From the IMG/VR virus record IMGVR_UViG_2671180417_000017, positions 1 through 4,978 of that record: a stretch of DNA of 4,978 nt; one strand, 5' to 3'. The notes beneath the pieces were generated by a model, which searched no databases, was not told where the DNA came from, and saw only the letters and a list, made by a program, of their open reading frames with translations. The DNA comes from a virus (Duplodnaviria; Heunggongvirae; Uroviricota; Caudoviricetes). Made by a program: the position numbers and the translations under genes. Below, piece by piece: positions 696 to 4,978 of this stretch (its first letter is position 1; every line of letters starts with the position of its first letter).

Positions 696-1466
696 ATGGA
701 AACCGTATCTGACGCACTGAAAGCACTGAAAAAAGCCTCTTCACATGTGGTGGCAGCTCGCCTTGGAATCAGTCGTGAAGAGGCTGTCAACGAACTGTGG
801 GAACTCAAAAAAAATGGCGTTGTTGATAAAACGGGTCACACCTGGTTTCTGGCTGTCGAAGGTGAAGCCGGGGTAACCGAAGGGCAGGCACTACAACCTG
901 AAGCGCCGGATGTGGTAACCGAAGAGGTCGCTCCAAAAGTTACCGCAGACATGATGGTTGAGTTTATCGGTCAGGATGGTGCTAAAACGTGTGAGGAACT
1001 GGCGGGTAAGTTCGGCGTCAGTACTCGCAAGGTTGCTTCCACGCTGGCGGTGGTAACCGCAACGGGGCGGCTGGCACGCGTTAATCAGAACGGTAAATTT
1101 CGTTACTGCATGTCGGGGGGTAATTTACCAGCAGATCCGAAAGCCGCGCCGGTAACGAAAAATGATGGTAAGGCCTTTCCTCAGCCAGCAGGTGCTGCGT
1201 TACCAGTCCGGGAAGCCGCAACACAGGAAGAAATTAAAACAGAAACTGTGGCGGACATTGTGCAGCCGTTGCCATCGTTTACCGAAACGCAAGCAGATGA
1301 GCTGATTTTTCCGTCCCTTCGCAGGGCAAACCTGGCGCTGCGCAGGGCGAAAAGTGATGTTCAGAAGTGGGAGCGAGTCTGCGCCGCGCTGCGGGAGCTG
1401 AACAAGCACCGGGATATTGTTCGACAGATTACTGATTCTTCCCGCCGTGTTGTATCGGAAAAGTGA
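696..1466 (+). CDS. conserved hypothetical phage protein, 256 aa, two putative winged-helix-like segments separated by a Pro/Ala/Glu-rich linker
   Basis: ATG 696 preceded by GGAGG (684-688) at 7 nt spacing, 21 nt after the dnaC-like stop. Long ORF with no internal stops. Two segments (LGISREEAVNELWELKKNGVV and CEELAGKFGVSTRKVASTLAVVTATGRL) resemble HTH / winged-helix recognition regions. Function not recognised. Confidence 0.8.
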   Translation: METVSDALKALKKASSHVVAARLGISREEAVNELWELKKNGVVDKTGHTWFLAVEGEAGVTEGQALQPEAPDVVTEEVAPKVTADMMVEFIGQDGAKTCEELAGKFGVSTRKVASTLAVVTATGRLARVNQNGKFRYCMSGGNLPADPKAAPVTKNDGKAFPQPAGAALPVREAATQEEIKTETVADIVQPLPSFTETQADELIFPSLRRANLALRRAKSDVQKWERVCAALRELNKHRDIVRQITDSSRRVVSEK

Positions 1467-1481
1467 TAGCCGGAGGCGCTT

Positions 1482-1877
1482 ATGGCGAAACCTTTTACAC
1501 ACGAACAGCGTGAAGAACTGAAGGCCCGAATTATCGGGCTGGTACGCAAAAATGAACGCATGACGATATCACAACTGGAGAGAGCGACGGGAGCAGGCTG
1601 GCATTCAGTCAGACGTTGCCTTGTGGATGTACTGGCTTGTGGCGATTTATACATGCCCAGTAAATATGGTGTTTTTACATCAGAACAGGTGTATCGCGTA
1701 TGGCGTAAGGCAGCGGAGAAAGCAACCGACCAGACATTGAGTCGAAAGTTACCAGACGGAGAAATACGCCGCTACGACAGACAACAGAACATAATCTGTG
1801 GCGAGTGCCGGAAGAGTGAAGTTATGCTGCGTGTACTGGCGTTCTATCAGGGCAATTTTCAGGAGGCGGTACTGTGA
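1482..1877 (+). CDS. hypothetical phage protein, 131 aa
   Basis: ATG 1482 preceded by GGAGG (1471-1475). Stop TGA 1875-1877 overlaps the GTG 1874 of the next frame (GTGA). N-terminal region (ISQLERATGAGWHSVRRCL) is HTH-like. No family recognised. Confidence 0.75.
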   Translation: MAKPFTHEQREELKARIIGLVRKNERMTISQLERATGAGWHSVRRCLVDVLACGDLYMPSKYGVFTSEQVYRVWRKAAEKATDQTLSRKLPDGEIRRYDRQQNIICGECRKSEVMLRVLAFYQGNFQEAVL

Positions 1878-1933
1878 GTGAATTAGCTATCAGGCTTCAA
1901 TTGTCGCTGGCATTCGCATCAAAGGAGAATGAG

Positions 1934-2518
1934 ATGACCACTTTTACAAAAGAGCAGTTAATCAGTCATGTTAGTGAAAATGTAAAGGCGATGAAATTTG
2001 CAGTAAAACAGACAGCATTCAAAAATTCTCTCGAGGCAATTGAGTTGGATTTAGCACTGGCCCTTGTTGCTCAGGCTTCGCTGGAAGCAGAGCCCGTGCT
2101 TTATATGAATCGATTTACCGGAAAGACATTCTCACTGGAAGAGCAACCCGGTGCTGATAAGGAACCGGAAATATACGTGCCGCTATATGCTGCCCCGCCA
2201 GACAGCGCCGCCATGCTTCAGGCTGGAAACTTTCGGGAAAATAAGGGTTCGTCAACCAATAATTTTCGGGAAATCTCGGAAACGTCAACCAACTATCCGG
2301 TAACTCCGGATGGTTGGATAAGCTGTAGTGAGCGAATGCCGGATGACGGTCAGCACGTAATTATTTTATGTGATGGCGCATTTGTTCTTTATGCGCAATA
2401 TCGAGACGGTGAGTTTTTTGATGTAGTCCGTGATGGTGATGAATTTTTCGAAACACAGAGCCGCAATGTAACCGACTGGATGCCGCTACCAGAACCGCCG
2501 CAGGAGGTGCGCCAATGA
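1934..2518 (+). CDS. phage protein with C-terminal DUF551-like domain; alternative upstream start GTG 1874 would give 214 aa
   Basis: ATG 1934 with AAGGAG (1922-1927) at 6 nt spacing. In-frame GTG 1874 also has AGGAGG (1861-1866) at 7 nt and overlaps the upstream stop, so the start is ambiguous; the 1874-1933 stretch uses rare codons (AGG, TTA, TTG). C-terminus ...DGEFFDVVRDGDEFFETQSRNVTDWMPLPEPP matches my recollection of the DUF551 hallmark found in lambdoid ea/eaa-region proteins. Stop TGA 2516-2518. Confidence 0.8.
   Translation: MTTFTKEQLISHVSENVKAMKFAVKQTAFKNSLEAIELDLALALVAQASLEAEPVLYMNRFTGKTFSLEEQPGADKEPEIYVPLYAAPPDSAAMLQAGNFRENKGSSTNNFREISETSTNYPVTPDGWISCSERMPDDGQHVIILCDGAFVLYAQYRDGEFFDVVRDGDEFFETQSRNVTDWMPLPEPPQEVRQ
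2231..2296 (+). repeat. imperfect tandem direct repeat (2 x 33 bp) inside the DUF551-like gene
   Basis: TTTCGGGAAAATAAGGGTTCGTCAACCAA versus TTTCGGGAAATCTCGGAAACGTCAACCAA: first 10 and last 9 nt identical. Encodes the duplicated peptide FRENKGSSTNN / FREISETSTNY. Confidence 0.7.
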
Positions 2519-2598
2519 ACTGGCCTGAAGCATTTGCAATTACAGGCGTTGCTATGGCTATCACTTTTTTAGTATATGTTATTTGTCGGTGGGGGTAA
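2515..2598 (+). CDS. small hydrophobic peptide, 27 aa (MNWPEAFAITGVAMAITFLVYVICRWG), predicted single TM helix
   Basis: ATG 2515 overlaps the upstream TGA (ATGA), with AGGAGG (2501-2506) 8 nt upstream. TAA 2596-2598. Below the ORF-track length cutoff. Hydrophobic core ending in a basic residue. Confidence 0.5.
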   Translation: MNWPEAFAITGVAMAITFLVYVICRWG

Positions 2599-2633
2599 AA
2601 ACGTTCGCCGGGATTAACACCAAAGGAGGGAAT

Positions 2634-2738
2634 ATGTCGGATGATATATCACTGGCAATGGAAGGTGCGCTGGCTGTTATTGCTGTTGTGGGCGTTTACT
2701 GCCTGGTTGTGTTTTTGATGGATCGACTAGGGAACTGA
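2634..2738 (+). CDS. small hydrophobic peptide, 34 aa (MSDDISLAMEGALAVIAVVGVYCLVVFLMDRLGN), predicted single TM helix
   Basis: ATG 2634 preceded by strong SD AAGGAGGG (2622-2629). TGA 2736-2738. Acidic N-terminus followed by about 20 hydrophobic residues. Confidence 0.55.
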   Translation: MSDDISLAMEGALAVIAVVGVYCLVVFLMDRLGN

Positions 2739-2746
2739 ATTCATTA

Positions 2747-2768
2747 CGATATGGGAATTCCCATATCG
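2747..2768. repeat. perfect 22-bp palindrome CGATATGGGAATTCCCATATCG
   Basis: Read directly: left half CGATATGGGAA is the exact reverse complement of right half TTCCCATATCG. Lies between the small-peptide stop (2738) and the putative hok promoter -35 (2781). Confidence 0.9.
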
Positions 2769-2780
2769 GGTAAAAACGGT

Positions 2781-2808
2781 TTGCGGTAAAGCGAGAGTTA
2801 AGTAGAAT
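2781..2808 (+). promoter_or_regulatory. putative sigma70 promoter of hok/mok mRNA (-35 TTGCGG, 16-bp spacer, -10 TAGAAT)
   Basis: TTGCGG 2781-2786 and TAGAAT 2803-2808. The predicted start near 2813-2816 coincides with the beginning of the 5' element GCGGGTGCTTGAGGC, which resembles the 5' end of plasmid R1 hok mRNA. Confidence 0.45.
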
Positions 2809-2859
2809 TGCTGCGGGTGCTTGAGGCTGTCTGCCTCGGGCATGCCACCGTAAGGCAGA

Positions 2860-2936
2860 CAGAGAAAAGCCCCAGTTAACATTACGCGTCCTGCAAGACG
2901 CCTAACATTAATCTGAGGCCAATTTCATGCTAGACA
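2860..2936 (-). ncRNA. sok: putative Sok-like antisense RNA of the hok locus (boundaries approximate)
   Basis: On the - strand, -35 TTGCCT (plus 2965-2970) and -10 TAACCT (plus 2942-2947) with a 17-bp spacer would start an antisense transcript near 2935 covering the mok SD/start (2915-2929). An imperfect hairpin (about 2881-2906) follows but has no clean U-tract, so the 3' end is uncertain. Confidence 0.3.
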
Positions 2937-3139
2937 CATGTAGGTTAGCCTCTTACGCGCCGAAAGGCAAGGAGAAGCAGGCTATGAAGCAGCAAAAGGC
3001 GATGTTAGTCGCCCTGATCGTCATCTGTATTACCGTCATTGTGACGGCACTGGTAACGAGGAAAGACCTCTGCGAGGTACGAATCCGAACCGGCCAGACG
3101 GAGGTCACTGTCTTCACAGCTTACGAACCTGAGGAGTAA
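2927..3139 (+). CDS. mok: Mok-like N-terminally extended reading frame (70 aa) in frame with hok
   Basis: ATG 2927 with GAGG (2915-2918) 8 nt upstream. N-terminus MLDTCRLAS... resembles chromosomal MokC (MLNTCR...) from memory. Same frame and stop as hok. Confidence 0.5.
   Translation: MLDTCRLASYAPKGKEKQAMKQQKAMLVALIVICITVIVTALVTRKDLCEVRIRTGQTEVTVFTAYEPEE
2984..3139 (+). CDS. hok: Hok/Gef-family type I toxin (51 aa), HokD/RelF-like
   Basis: ATG 2984 with AAGGAG (2969-2974) 9 nt upstream. Protein MKQQKAMLVALIVICITVIVTALVTRKDLCEVRIRTGQTEVTVFTAYEPEE is near-identical to my recollection of E. coli HokD/HokC: TM helix followed by the conserved RKDLCEV...TEV..F.AYE periplasmic tail. TAA 3137-3139. 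Confidence 0.9.
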   Translation: MKQQKAMLVALIVICITVIVTALVTRKDLCEVRIRTGQTEVTVFTAYEPEE

Positions 3140-3207
3140 GAGACCAGGCGAGGGAGAAATCCCTCGCCACCTCTGATGTGTCAGGCATCCTCAACGCACC
3201 CGCACTT

Positions 3208-3229
3208 AACCCGCTTCGGCGGGTTTTTT
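3208..3229 (+). terminator. rho-independent terminator of hok mRNA (stem CCCGC, loop TTCG, stem GCGGG, then T6)
   Basis: AACCCGCTTCGGCGGGTTTTTT read directly: GC-rich stem, tetraloop, U-tract. Confidence 0.8.
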
Positions 3230-3348
3230 CACGTACTGTGGTTGTGAATACGATCGGTATTAGGCTATGCTAACAACATTAGCCTGACTAATTTTGTATT
3301 GACTTGATTTTTGTTAAAGAACAGGACGGAGAAGTAAGGGTACACCCA

Positions 3349-3528
3349 ATGAGCTACGCACTAAAAAAACACCCGCGATTGACTATTCCCCCTCGCGATA
3401 AAAGCGTTGTGGCAGCTCCGCGCCCGGCTATCGATGAAAATTGCACTCATCGTGAGCAGGTGAAAAATGCTTTCGATTTCGGTTTTTCTCGTTACGAGAA
3501 GGCAATGGAAGAACTTTCAAAAGTGTAA
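3349..3528 (+). CDS. putative antitoxin partner of the Doc-family toxin (59 aa; not Phd/YefM-like)
   Basis: ATG 3349 with AAGGG (3335-3339) upstream; the ORF track begins the frame at TTG 3304. Stop TAA 3526-3528 lies 18 nt before the Doc ATG, the usual antitoxin-then-toxin arrangement. Sequence MSYALKKHPRLTIPPRDKSVVAAPRPAIDENCTHREQVKNAFDFGFSRYEKAMEELSKV matches no antitoxin family I recognise. Confidence 0.6.
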   Translation: MSYALKKHPRLTIPPRDKSVVAAPRPAIDENCTHREQVKNAFDFGFSRYEKAMEELSKV

Positions 3529-3546
3529 TGATGGGTATTGTGCTCT

Positions 3547-4032
3547 ATGGCTGAGATTGTTGAAGGAGTGCACTACCTTTCGTTTGATGATCTTACCGAA
3601 ATTAATCGCCTTTTAATTGAGCTTCAAACACCAGATGAACCTGTTAGTGTGCTGAGTGTTGATAATTTAAGTTCTTCTCAGTCTCGTCCCAGCATGGTTC
3701 GATGGTATGAACAGACTAATGACATGTTTGTACTGGCATCAGTATTGATTGAAAGTCTGATTCAGAATCATCCATTTGCTAATGCAAACAAACGAACAGC
3801 TATGATGGCTGGTTATGTCTTCTTGTTGTTGAATGGCTATGAGTTAACAGCACCAGGCGATGAAATCGTGGAAATGGCAGAGGGACTGGCCTGCAAAACC
3901 TATACTCGAGAAGATCTCGAGAACTGGTTGTGTTATTGGTCTCGTGCGTATGACGGCCGGGAATTATGTAAAACAGGCGCAACTGTTGTTTTGTATGAAA
4001 CTATCAAGCTTAAAATAGAACAGCAAAACTAA
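3547..4032 (+). CDS. doc: Doc/Fic-family toxin (death-on-curing-like, predicted kinase/AMPylase fold), about 161 aa
   Basis: Motif HPFANANKRTA fits the Doc signature H-x-F-x-(D/N)-(A/G)-N-K-R, and the flanking helices (ASVLIESLIQN before, MMAGYVFLLLNGYEL after) parallel P1 Doc. Start is ATG 3547 or in-frame TTG 3538. Stop TAA 4030-4032. Confidence 0.85.
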   Translation: MAEIVEGVHYLSFDDLTEINRLLIELQTPDEPVSVLSVDNLSSSQSRPSMVRWYEQTNDMFVLASVLIESLIQNHPFANANKRTAMMAGYVFLLLNGYELTAPGDEIVEMAEGLACKTYTREDLENWLCYWSRAYDGRELCKTGATVVLYETIKLKIEQQN

Positions 4033-4048
4033 AGGTGCTTCTAATGAA

Positions 4049-4068
4049 AACCCGCTTCGGCGGGTTTT
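4049..4068. terminator. bidirectional rho-independent terminator (A-tract, CCCGC TTCG GCGGG, T-tract)
   Basis: GAAAACCCGCTTCGGCGGGTTTTGTTGT: the same 20-mer AACCCGCTTCGGCGGGTTTT as at 3208-3227. Sits between the convergent doc (+) and HTH antitoxin (-) genes, with A-run upstream and T-run downstream. Confidence 0.7.
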
Positions 4069-4082
4069 GTTGTATTGGAGTA

Positions 4083-4400
4083 TCATGATATTACCTGGAT
4101 TCCGTTTTTCTCTACGACTGAAAGAAGGCGAAGAGCGGCACCTCCCGGCCGTTTTACACCACGTTCCCAGTCTGATATCAGGTTTTTACTGACGTTGAGG
4201 TATCTGGCAAAAACAGGTTGAGACAGATGCTCTCGTTCGCGCAGTGCACGGATCCTTTCCGGAGACATTACCGGCGCTGGCTGGAGACAAGTTTCATCGA
4301 ATTCTCGCATAGTCTGTTTCGTTACTGCGCCGATATCATGAAGCGATTCCATCATTTCATGTACGGATGCAAGCGCATCACTGCGGTAATTTTTACTCAT
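4083..4400 (-). CDS. HTH-XRE family antitoxin (HigA-like), 105 aa
   Basis: ATG (plus 4398-4400) with GGAGGT SD (plus 4406-4411 reverse complement) 5 nt upstream; stop TGA (plus 4083-4085). C-terminal HTH LSQPVFARYLNVSKNLISDWERGVKRPGGAALRLL is typical of XRE-type antitoxins. Lies immediately downstream of a RelE-like toxin frame on the same strand. Confidence 0.85.
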   Translation of the reverse strand: MSKNYRSDALASVHEMMESLHDIGAVTKQTMREFDETCLQPAPVMSPERIRALREREHLSQPVFARYLNVSKNLISDWERGVKRPGGAALRLLSVVEKNGIQVIS

Positions 4401-4454
4401 TGGGTACCTCCGTAAACTGACCCTGTAGAATCAGTTGTGCCAGTTGTTCATCTG

Positions 4455-4762
4455 TTAGATTGAGTACGTGAGGAGCCCCTTCCGAAATGCACTTTCCTCA
4501 GTAGCGGTTATATTTTCACGTTCATTTTTTGCGTATGCATATACGAAAAAGGCCCTTGTGCCGACGCGATAGAAAATGATTGTGCGATAACCGCCAGATT
4601 TGCCGCCACCGACTCGTGGCAGACGTTGCTTGATAACGCCGTTACCCAGGTTTGCTGAGATAAGCCCGTTATCAGCCTGTTTAACAATTTCGCGCAGTGA
4701 TTGGTCGGATATTTTGTTTTGCGTGCAAGTCGCTCAAACCAGGCGTTTTTAAAAATGCGCAT
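4455..4762 (-). pseudogene. RelE/ParE-superfamily toxin (DUF1044-like, GGGKSGGYRT motif) disrupted by a 1-nt frameshift in an A4 run
   Basis: Frame A from ATG (plus 4760-4762) encodes MRIFKNAWFERLARK... and ends at TAA plus 4508-4510. The -1 frame from about plus 4721 encodes KISDQSLREIVKQADNGLISANLGNGVIKQRLPRVGGGKSGGYRTIIFYRVGTRAFFVYAYAKNERENITATEESAFRKGLLTYSI, ending at TAA plus 4455-4457. Both pieces look like one conserved toxin; the junction is the TTTT run at plus 4717-4720. Adding one A restores an ORF of about 101 aa. Confidence 0.65.
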
Positions 4763-4784
4763 TTTTTGTTCCGTTATTAATGTA

Positions 4785-4799
4785 TAACACATAGTGTTA
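4785..4799. promoter_or_regulatory. perfect inverted repeat TAACAC-ATA-GTGTTA, candidate operator in the divergent promoter region of the RelE-like/HTH module
   Basis: Read directly; lies 23-37 nt upstream of the toxin ATG on the - strand and overlaps the likely promoter. XRE antitoxin dimers typically bind such dyads. Confidence 0.45.
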
Positions 4800-4829
4800 C
4801 ATTGCGTAGGGATCTGCAATGCCATCAGT

Positions 4830-4859
4830 TTGACAACGTCGCGTGTTCGGGGCTATATT
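4830..4859 (+). promoter_or_regulatory. putative sigma70 promoter (-35 TTGACA, 18-bp spacer, -10 TATATT) reading rightward
   Basis: Consensus -35 TTGACA 4830-4835 and TATATT 4854-4859. Divergent from the - strand TA module. Confidence 0.4.
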
Positions 4860-4920
4860 CCTCACGCGCCAGCAAAACCTGGCGTCGGGATTAGCACCCC
4901 GGATATCGAAACGGTGCATA

Positions 4921-4941
4921 ACCGCGCTGGCGGTTTTTTTA
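4921..4941 (+). terminator. putative rho-independent terminator (ACCGC GCTG GCGGT, then T7)
   Basis: Short GC-rich hairpin followed by TTTTTTT 4934-4940, about 75 nt downstream of the putative promoter. Confidence 0.5.
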
Positions 4942-4978
4942 TGCGCTAAGCACAGTCACATTCGCGATTTATGGCGGG

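What the first reader, a model, noticed from the sequence alone, without database searches (positions are those of the whole stretch)
3208..4068. Antitoxin-Doc cassette is bracketed by two identical 20-bp terminator hairpins (direct repeats)
AACCCGCTTCGGCGGGTTTT occurs exactly at 3208-3227 and 4049-4068, and the roughly 820 bp between them holds exactly the putative antitoxin and the Doc-like gene. Identical flanking terminators are a hallmark of moron insertion and would also allow precise loss or gain of the cassette by recombination between the repeats.
Basis: seen in the sequence. Interest (0 to 1): 0.5.

Follow-up and report, generated by a model that had tools for sequence, protein, structure and literature searches.

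The report
Doc toxin cassette bounded by twin terminators
In an E. coli lambda-like prophage, a small two-gene Doc toxin cassette sits between two identical 20-base transcription terminators, and related prophages carry the same site without the cassette and with a single terminator, so the shared hairpin marks where the cassette is gained or lost.

Summary
AACCCGCTTCGGCGGGTTTT occurs exactly at 3208-3227 and 4049-4068. The 821 bp between the copies holds a leader, a 59-aa ORF and a Doc-family gene.

The copies are not a duplication made by insertion. Copy 1 is the terminator of the hok mRNA. Copy 2 is the Doc cassette's own terminator: it follows the cassette in every context examined, including one with no hok, and related hairpins follow Doc homologues in Morganella, Providencia and Kluyvera. 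The 20-mer is also a widespread phage terminator.

168 E. coli genomes carry hok, one hairpin, then the same downstream genes. One of them is about 99.6% identical to the window over about 3 kb and differs by exactly 841 bp, which is the cassette plus one hairpin. A 99.4%-identical cassette also sits in a diverged background, with the divergence step in a 91-nt interval containing hairpin 2.

The same position after hok holds other hairpin-terminated cassettes (RosmerTA-like, XRE/ImmA-like), with empty sites for each.

This is a moron-like toxin-antitoxin module at a mosaic junction. The mechanism is inferred to be short-homology recombination or slippage at the hairpin. It is a good example of a known kind, of moderate interest.

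The parts
2815..3233 (+). hok/sok type I toxin-antitoxin locus (full-length hok mRNA). It contains the mok reading frame (2927-3139) and the Hok CDS (2984-3139).
   Evidence: Rfam sok model at 2815-2989 scores 116.9 bits, E 4.6e-27. Pfam HOK_GEF scores 1.2e-22. RefSeq annotates the gene as hokD. The minimum-energy fold has z = -8.9 and pairs the 5' and 3' ends.
3189..3201 (+). fbi-like 3' element CCTCAACGCACCC, which pairs with the mRNA 5' end GGGTGCTTGAGG (2815-2826).
   Evidence: The pairing appears in the minimum-energy and centroid folds. Identifying it with the tac/fbi closure of plasmid R1 hok mRNA rests on my knowledge of that system.
3208..3227 (+). Hairpin copy 1: the intrinsic terminator of the hok mRNA (stem AACCCGC/GCGGGTT, loop TTCG, T run to 3229).
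   Evidence: The same hairpin follows hok in 125 loci and is itself followed by at least 24 different right flanks. It is the single copy present at empty sites.
3228..3348 (+). Cassette leader. It contains TTGACT (3299-3304) and an ATTAGGCTA..CTAA motif that is conserved among diverged leaders. It presumably holds the promoter and operator.
   Evidence: Alignment of diverged leaders. Distant homologues show TTGACT, a palindrome, then TATAAT upstream of the small ORF. The consensus scan finds no promoter in the window's own leader, so the promoter is inferred.
3349..3528 (+). 59-aa ORF, the presumed Doc antitoxin. It belongs to no described family.
   Evidence: No hit in Pfam, NCBIfam, PADLOC or PDB, and no similarity to P1 Phd. 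It always lies upstream of doc. A Providencia homologue is 66% identical, E 7e-29.
3547..4032 (+). Doc (death-on-curing) family toxin gene, 161 aa, with motif HPFANANKR.
   Evidence: NCBIfam TIGR01550 DOC_P1 scores 122 bits against a cutoff of 38.65. Pfam Fic scores 3e-11. PDB Doc chains match: 9vzc at 1e-12 and 3k33.
4047..4068 (.). Hairpin copy 2 (the 20-mer at 4049-4068; the palindrome extends to AAAA at 4047). It is the Doc cassette's own terminator and, on the other strand, the terminator for the convergent HTH/RelE operon.
   Evidence: It is exact after the cassette in every E. coli context, whatever follows. Related hairpins, with one compensatory pair, follow Doc homologues in Morganella and Providencia.
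4083..4400 (-). HTH (XRE/MqsA-like) antitoxin-type gene. It is the first gene of the downstream module that directly follows the single hairpin at empty sites.
   Evidence: Pfam HTH_3 scores 1e-7. Empty-site loci are L002, L279 and L280.
4393..4762 (-). RelE/ParE-family toxin gene, inactivated here by two 1-nt deletions (near 4720 and 4477).
   Evidence: Alignment to the intact 123-aa gene of L002. Only the first 34 residues match Pfam RelE.

Best explanation
The window is the early-right region of an E. coli lambdoid prophage. Three independent modules meet there, and they are joined at two copies of the same intrinsic terminator.

Copy 1 ends the hok mRNA, directly after the 3' element that pairs with the mRNA 5' end. 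Copy 2 is the terminator of a self-contained Doc toxin-antitoxin cassette made of a leader, a 59-aa partner gene, doc and the hairpin. Because it has A and T runs on both sides, copy 2 also stops the convergent HTH/RelE operon.

The cassette is a low-GC, moron-like addition. The two terminators are 20/20 identical, so they form a direct repeat. Recombination or replication slippage between them would remove exactly the cassette plus one hairpin. A crossover at the hairpin between co-resident or co-infecting hok-bearing prophages would move the cassette into another background.

Shown here: the anatomy, the exact empty site, the near-isogenic filled and empty pair, a cassette that is 99.4% identical inside a diverged background, and other cassettes bounded in the same way. 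Inferred: termination activity, the recombination pathway (phage Red/RecT-type, RecA or RecA-independent slippage), and the direction of each event (gain or loss).
For: Identity of the region. The window matches a prophage of E. coli AST198 at 100% and O104:H4 strains at 99.5%.

Copy 1 belongs to hok. The supporting results are the Rfam sok hit and the 5'-3' closure followed by a terminal hairpin in the fold. hok plus this hairpin is also followed by at least 24 different sequences.

Copy 2 belongs to the cassette.
- It is exact after doc with at least 5 different downstream flanks, and in L007, which has no hok.
- Morganella has AACCCGCTCAGGCGGGTTTT. Providencia has AACCCACTCCGGTGGGTTTT, with a compensatory G-C to A-U change.
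- No hok/sok is detected in those loci.

Empty site.
- An artificial junction (2927-3227 joined to 4069-4400) matches as one piece in 168 genomes.
- In L002 the two window alignments share one hairpin.
- With the cassette removed in silico, the window and L002 differ at about 10 positions over 1880-4840.

Transfer between backgrounds.
- The L222 cassette differs from the window at 5 of 821 positions, while the right flank is only 83-90% identical to the window.
- That right flank is about 99% identical to the empty loci L279 and L280.
- The step in divergence lies between 3985 and 4077, an interval that contains hairpin 2.

Composition. Cassette GC is 0.418 against 0.508 and 0.476 for the flanks, and doc GC3 is 0.358.

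Generality. RmrT/RmrA (RosmerTA-like) cassettes and an XRE plus ImmA-like pair occupy the same position between the hok hairpin and a second identical or near-identical hairpin. Matching empty sites exist for each.
Against: - 20 bp is below the minimal efficient pairing segment quoted for Red-beta (23-27 bp) and RecA (31-34 bp) (PMC3945230), so hairpin-only homologous recombination should be inefficient.
The identity of the two copies therefore need not reflect recombination.
- On the left side of the L222 comparison the divergence step is not sharp at hairpin 1; mismatches occur at 3238 and 3255.
- Some copies have drifted by 1-3 mismatches (L005, L008, L105, L279, L280), so identity is not actively maintained everywhere.
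- No promoter was detected in the window's leader.
- No expression, termination or recombination data exist.
Confidence: 0.72

Rival explanations
1. The identity is coincidental. Both modules simply use the same very common terminator design. The mosaic junctions arose by illegitimate recombination that selection kept at gene boundaries (the Hendrix model). The 20-bp identity plays no mechanistic role, and gain, loss and transfer go through long flanking homology.
For: The 20-mer occurs in many unrelated phage contexts. Each copy is native to its own module. 20 bp is below the published pairing minima (PMC3945230). In 933W the junction after hok lies at the left edge of the hairpin position and the hairpin is absent.
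Against: The indel in the near-isogenic pair is exactly the cassette plus one repeat unit, with hybrid flanks. Several unrelated cassette families at this one position all end in the same or a nearly identical hairpin, and each has an empty counterpart. The L222 breakpoint interval of 91 nt includes hairpin 2.
Confidence: 0.18
2. The hairpin is the target or attachment site of a dedicated mobility mechanism (integron-like attC recombination, a terminator-targeting transposon, or target-site duplication), and the two copies were created by the insertion event.
For: Cassettes are bounded by direct repeats of a hairpin. Several cassette types use one site. Integron attC sites are also hairpins.
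Against: - No integrase or transposase lies in the cassette or in the 14-kb region around it.
- There are no terminal inverted repeats other than the hairpins themselves.
- There is no GTTRRRY core at the junctions (sequence read directly), and the hairpin is far shorter than an attC.
- Copy 2 exists without copy 1 in L007 and in other genera, so it was not created by insertion next to hok.
Confidence: 0.05
3. The cassette-less form is ancestral and no deletions occur. The repeat matters only as a pair of terminators that insulates hok, doc and the convergent operon from one another.
For: Empty sites (168 genomes) outnumber filled ones in this downstream context (34). Both hairpins have clear transcriptional roles.
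Against: This cannot be separated from the best explanation on present data, because direction cannot be inferred. A nearly identical cassette in two diverged backgrounds still requires at least one recombination near hairpin 2.
Confidence: 0.05

Closest known systems
Morons of lambdoid phages (Juhala/Hendrix; reviewed in Cumby et al. 2012, PMC3594210)
   Same: It is an extra transcription unit absent from close relatives, with deviant (lower) GC content and its own terminator. It carries a function expected to act in the lysogen, here a toxin-antitoxin.
   Different: The promoter is not demonstrated in this copy. The terminator is sequence-identical to that of the neighbouring hok unit, which is not part of the moron definition.
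Short conserved boundary (linker) sequences proposed to mediate homologous recombination between lambdoid phage modules (Susskind and Botstein 1978; Clark et al. 2001; as cited in PMC3029335)
   Same: A short conserved sequence sits exactly at the junctions of exchangeable modules, and filled, empty and swapped states all break there.
   Different: Here the boundary sequence is a functional terminator hairpin of only 20 bp, shorter than the measured pairing minima (PMC3945230). It also recurs widely as a generic terminator.
Phd/Doc type II toxin-antitoxin system of phage P1
   Same: The toxin matches TIGR01550 DOC_P1 and solved Doc structures, and carries the HxFx(D/N)(A/G)NKR-type motif. A small gene lies immediately upstream.
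   Different: The upstream 59-aa protein has no detectable similarity to Phd or to any described antitoxin family. The context is a lambdoid prophage, not the P1 plasmid.
Hotspots of antiviral systems in P2-like phages and P4-like satellites (Rousset et al. 2022, PMC9122126)
   Same: A fixed position in a temperate phage genome holds alternative accessory cassettes (Doc TA, RosmerTA-like, XRE/ImmA-like) between conserved flanks.
   Different: The phage family is different. The position is next to hok/sok and is delimited by a repeated terminator hairpin. Defence activity of the occupants was not tested here.
Integron gene cassettes with attC hairpins
   Same: Promoter-proximal cassettes each end in a hairpin-forming repeat, with presence or absence exactly at the repeat.
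   Different: There is no integron integrase, no attC architecture and no GTTRRRY core. The hairpin is a 20-bp terminator. This is a resemblance in layout only.

Membership tests
Intrinsic (Rho-independent) terminator | GC-rich stem-loop immediately followed by a U tract | tested here: met
   Both copies have a 5 G-C plus 2 A-U stem, a UUCG loop and a T run. Energies are -12.8 and -14.4 kcal/mol, with z-scores of -2.4 and -3.7. Copy 2 is listed by the terminator scan. Copy 1 is missed by the scan but has six T after the GC stem.
Intrinsic (Rho-independent) terminator | Transcripts end there in vivo | not testable with these tools
   This needs Term-seq or 3' RACE.
hok/sok type I toxin-antitoxin | Hok peptide, overlapping mok frame, sok antisense region, and closure of the mRNA 5' and 3' ends | tested here: met
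   Rfam sok scores 116.9 bits. Pfam HOK_GEF scores 1.2e-22. The mok ORF is 2927-3139. The fold pairs 2815-2826 with 3189-3201.
Moron | Absent from closely related phages (an 'extra' segment) | tested here: met
   L002 is about 99.6% identical across roughly 3 kb but lacks exactly 841 bp. 168 genomes carry the empty junction.
Moron | Base composition differs from the flanks | tested here: met
   GC is 0.418 against 0.508 on the left and 0.476 on the right. doc GC3 is 0.358.
Moron | Own terminator | tested here: met
   Copy 2 follows the cassette in all contexts, including contexts without hok and other genera.
Moron | Own promoter | tested here: inconclusive
   The scan gives no consensus hit in 3228-3348. 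A TTGACT is present at 3299-3304, and distant homologues have TTGACT, an operator-like palindrome and TATAAT.
Phd/Doc type II toxin-antitoxin | Doc-family toxin with the Fic/Doc motif | tested here: met
   TIGR01550 scores 122 bits against a cutoff of 38.65. PDB Doc chains match. The motif is HPFANANKR.
Phd/Doc type II toxin-antitoxin | Phd/YefM-family antitoxin encoded upstream | tested here: not met
   The 59-aa ORF has no Pfam, NCBIfam, PADLOC or PDB match and no BLASTP alignment to P1 Phd. It is conserved together with doc across genera (66% identity), so it may be a different antitoxin type.
Integron gene cassette | attC site (R''-L''...L'-R' with a GTTRRRY core) and an associated IntI integrase | tested here: not met
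   There is no GTTRRRY at either junction (the right flanks are TTCACG and GTTGTAT). No integrase lies in the window or in the 14-kb locus L004.
Transposable element with target-site duplication | Transposase and terminal inverted repeats inside the direct repeats | tested here: not met
   The cassette holds only the small ORF and doc. The only inverted repeat at its ends is the hairpin itself (pair I4).
Module boundary (linker) sequence of lambdoid phages | A short conserved sequence at junctions where homology to different relatives starts or stops | tested here: met
   Phage and E. coli matches to hok stop at window positions 3211-3234. O157-type loci match up to 4068 and then diverge. The hok hairpin has at least 24 different right flanks.
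Module boundary (linker) sequence of lambdoid phages | Recombination actually initiates in the conserved sequence | not testable with these tools
   Only interval mapping is possible here: the L222 breakpoint lies within 3986-4076.

The most novel reading that the evidence does not exclude
The hok terminator hairpin could be more than a passive boundary. It may act as a docking site that makes the position just after hok/sok a dedicated exchange slot in lambdoid prophages. Any toxin-antitoxin or defence cassette whose own terminator has the AACCCGC...GCGGGTTTT stem could then be captured, swapped or shed by crossovers or template switching within the hairpin. That would be a recombinase-independent, integron-like cassette system built on a terminator. 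The observations behind this reading are as follows. Doc, three diverged RosmerTA-like cassettes and an XRE/ImmA-like pair all sit between the hok hairpin and a second identical or near-identical hairpin. Relatives of these cassettes outside the hok slot have the same stem but different loops.
Probability: 0.2. Interest if true: 0.65.

Novelty: new member of a known kind. Interest (0 to 1): 0.4.

Why it matters
This is an unusually clean natural example of how accessory toxin-antitoxin or defence cassettes enter and leave temperate phage genomes. There is a near-isogenic filled and empty pair, a junction defined to the base, and the same cassette in two diverged backgrounds.

It bears on the long debate over whether phage mosaic junctions arise by recombination at short conserved sequences or by illegitimate recombination. 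It also flags the position after hok/sok as a variable slot in E. coli lambdoid prophages, including those of O104:H4 and O157 strains, where accessory systems can be looked for.

None of this changes the basic picture of morons and modular phage evolution.

Tried and rejected
- Target-site duplication or IS/MITE origin was rejected. There is no transposase and no terminal inverted repeats other than the hairpins.
- Integron attC was rejected. There is no GTTRRRY core and no integrase, and the hairpin is only 20 bp.
- The idea that copy 2 is a duplicate of the hok terminator made on insertion was rejected. The cassette keeps the hairpin where hok is absent (L007), and related hairpins, with a compensatory change, follow Doc homologues in Morganella and Providencia.
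- Similarity of the small ORF to Phd was not found.
- The weak Rfam hits over the hairpins (isrK at 3148-3229; rsmX and istR at 3981-4071) are all below gathering score. I attribute them to the terminator stem-loop.
- The promoter scan of the leader gave no hit.
- Searches of the paper library for an earlier description of a hairpin-bounded slot next to hok found none. This is only a search of the held library.
- The direction of the event (gain or loss) could not be resolved from the pairs examined.

Full report
**Observation**

The 20-mer AACCCGCTTCGGCGGGTTTT occurs exactly at 3208-3227 and 4049-4068 on the + strand. No further site appears at up to 3 mismatches, and 200 shuffles gave no match (repeat family D4). 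Identity ends at the 20-mer on both sides.

Both copies fold into a stem of five G-C and two A-U pairs with a UUCG loop and a following U run. Copy 2 has AAAA upstream, so it also forms a terminator on the minus strand. The consensus scan lists copy 2 only. Copy 1 fails the scan's tail rule, which I attribute to the stem being extended through the A-U pairs. Read directly, its GC stem is followed by six T.

The 821 bp between the copies holds four things:
- a 121-bp leader
- a 59-aa ORF (3349-3528)
- a 161-aa Doc-family gene (3547-4032)
- a 16-bp spacer

**What the region is**

The window is 100% identical to a prophage of E. coli AST198 and 99.5% identical to O104:H4 strains. The surrounding genes are those of a lambdoid prophage: cI/cII-like regulators, replication genes, NinB, RusA, NinH and Q.

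Upstream of copy 1 lies a hok/sok locus:
- The Rfam sok model matches at 116.9 bits.
- Pfam HOK_GEF matches the Hok peptide.
- The predicted fold of 2815-3233 (z = -8.9) pairs the 5' end GGGUGCUUGAGG with CCUCAACGCACCC at 3189-3201, and then ends in the hairpin.

This is the layout I know from the tac/fbi closure of plasmid R1 hok mRNA. Copy 1 is therefore the terminator of the hok mRNA.

Downstream of copy 2, on the minus strand, lie an HTH antitoxin-type gene (4083-4400) and a RelE/ParE-family gene. Two 1-nt deletions inactivate the RelE/ParE gene here.

**The cassette**

Doc identity is solid. NCBIfam TIGR01550 scores 122 bits, solved Doc structures match, and the motif is HPFANANKR.

The 59-aa protein matches nothing in Pfam, NCBIfam, PADLOC or PDB, and does not align to P1 Phd. 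It does accompany doc in every locus seen, and it is 66% identical in Providencia. It is a real, conserved partner. Its antitoxin role is inferred from position only.

Cassette GC is 0.418, against 0.508 upstream, 0.542 for hok and 0.476 downstream. doc GC3 is 0.358.

The scan finds no promoter in the leader. Distant homologues have TTGACT, a palindrome and TATAAT at the equivalent place, and the TTGACT is kept in the window at 3299-3304.

**Whose terminator is copy 2?**

In E. coli the cassette occurs in 125 of 5,426 complete genomes, always on the chromosome. In every fetched locus it ends in the 20-mer, exact in all but L105, which has one mismatch. At least five different sequences follow it.

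L007 has the cassette with a homologous but diverged leader, another terminator upstream, no hok, and the exact hairpin at its 3' end.

Doc homologues (66-74% aa identity) occur in Providencia, Morganella and Kluyvera. They have the small ORF upstream and no hok/sok, and four of the six loci end in a related hairpin:
- Morganella: AACCCGCTCAGGCGGGTTTT
- Providencia: AACCCACTCCGGTGGGTTTT and AGCCCACTTCGGTGGGTTTT, where one G-C pair has become A-U on both sides
- Kluyvera: AACCCGCCATTCGGTGGTTTT

Copy 2 is therefore the cassette's own, ancestral terminator. It is not a duplicate of the hok terminator.

**Is the 20-mer special?**

It is a generic terminator. Of the 122 copies read, 89 lie in unrelated flanks on contigs of 30-67% GC, 32 follow hok and 1 follows doc. 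The identity of two terminators is therefore less remarkable than a 20-bp repeat would normally be.

**Cassette-less variants**

An artificial junction (2927-3227 joined directly to 4069-4400) matches as a single piece in 168 E. coli genomes.

In L002 (strain HCP4S3_I4), window 1359-3227 and window 4049-4978 align to segments that share one hairpin (alignment). After the cassette is removed in silico, the window and L002 differ at about 10 positions between 1880 and 4840. They form a near-isogenic pair that differs by exactly 841 bp: the cassette plus one hairpin.

**Transfer between backgrounds**

L222 carries a cassette that differs from the window's at 5 of 821 positions. Its left flank is about 92% identical to the window and its right flank 83-90%. 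That right flank is about 99% identical to the common empty loci L279 and L280.

The step in divergence lies between 3985 and 4077, an interval of 91 nt that contains hairpin 2. On the left side the step is not sharp. At least one recombination at or near hairpin 2 is therefore required.

Other relatives break at the same points:
- O157-type loci match up to 4068 and then diverge.
- Many phages match hok only up to positions 3211-3234.
- In 933W the hairpin is absent, and another moron starts at its left edge.

**Generality**

Among 125 loci with hok plus the hairpin, at least 24 different right flanks follow. Besides Doc, the following are found between the hok hairpin and a second identical or near-identical hairpin:
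- three diverged two-gene cassettes that match PADLOC RmrT and RmrA of RosmerTA (RmrA 6e-105, RmrT 5e-25)
- an XRE plus ImmA-like pair

All are low in GC (0.40-0.43). Each is followed by a flank that elsewhere directly follows the hok hairpin. One RosmerTA-like occupant, together with its hok-side and downstream flanks, is found in 232 genomes.

Its relatives outside the hok slot mostly end in hairpins with the same CCCGC/GCGGG core stem but other loops.

**Mechanism**

Shown here: the anatomy, the exact empty site, and an exchange breakpoint near hairpin 2.

Inferred: loss by recombination or replication slippage between the 20-bp direct repeats, and gain or transfer by a crossover at the hairpin between hok-bearing lambdoid prophages. 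E. coli genomes carry a median of two and up to ten loci matching this region, mostly its hok part.

Twenty base pairs is below the pairing minima quoted for Red-beta (23-27 bp) and RecA (31-34 bp) (PMC3945230). Such events should be rare, and RecA-independent slippage is a plausible alternative (my knowledge of the short-repeat deletion literature). The direction of each event cannot be decided.

**Comparison with what is known**

The cassette fits the moron concept (PMC3594210) and the proposal of short conserved boundary sequences at lambdoid module junctions (cited in PMC3029335). The slot resembles the accessory hotspots of P2 and P4 (PMC9122126).

It is not an integron cassette or a transposon. 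I found no earlier description of a hairpin-bounded slot after hok in the held library.

**Verdict**

The correction is that the twin hairpins are two modules' own terminators of one widespread type, not a footprint of insertion. This is a new, well-documented member of a known kind, of moderate interest.

Noticed in passing
window 4393-4762 (minus strand): The RelE/ParE-family toxin gene next to the HTH antitoxin gene carries two 1-nt deletions (near 4720 and 4477) relative to the intact 123-aa gene in L002. In this prophage the toxin is therefore a pseudogene, while the antitoxin gene is intact.
   Followed up: yes
window 4830-4940: A near-consensus promoter (TTGACA, 18 nt, TATATT; 11 of 12 matches) is followed by matches to Rfam isrK (74.3 bits, above gathering) and to c4-a1b1 targets of C4 antisense RNA (47.4 bits). 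This lies upstream of an ORF6N/antirepressor-type gene in the parent genome, which suggests an antisense-controlled antirepressor region.
   Followed up: no
L017/L117/L138/L178 and L084/L200 (IMG/VR contigs); 232 E. coli genomes: The same position after hok holds RosmerTA-like (RmrT plus RmrA) cassettes in three diverged versions, and an XRE plus ImmA-like pair. Each ends in the same or a nearly identical hairpin, and matching empty sites exist.
   Followed up: partly
L279 1782-1801, L280 1774-1793 (empty sites): In the commonest cassette-less background the single hairpin carries stem mutations (AACCTGC..., AACATGC...). The hok terminator is weakened there, whereas both copies are perfect in the filled loci examined.
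   Followed up: no
L223-L228 (Providencia, Morganella, Kluyvera): Homologues of the Doc cassette have a clear TTGACT...TATAAT promoter that overlaps a perfect palindrome (TAATGTAnCTTAACTTACATTA-like), probably the autoregulation operator. The E. coli leaders are much more diverged.
   Followed up: partly
window 2228-2292: There are two tandem 33-nt units (75% identical) inside the DUF551 gene. They encode a repeated FRENKGSSTNN/FREISETSTN peptide.
   Followed up: no
L221 (phage 933W) 1620-2080: hokW in 933W lacks the terminator hairpin. Homology stops at the hairpin's left edge, and a YgiW-like gene with a different terminator follows, so the hok mRNA 3' end must form differently there.
   Followed up: partly
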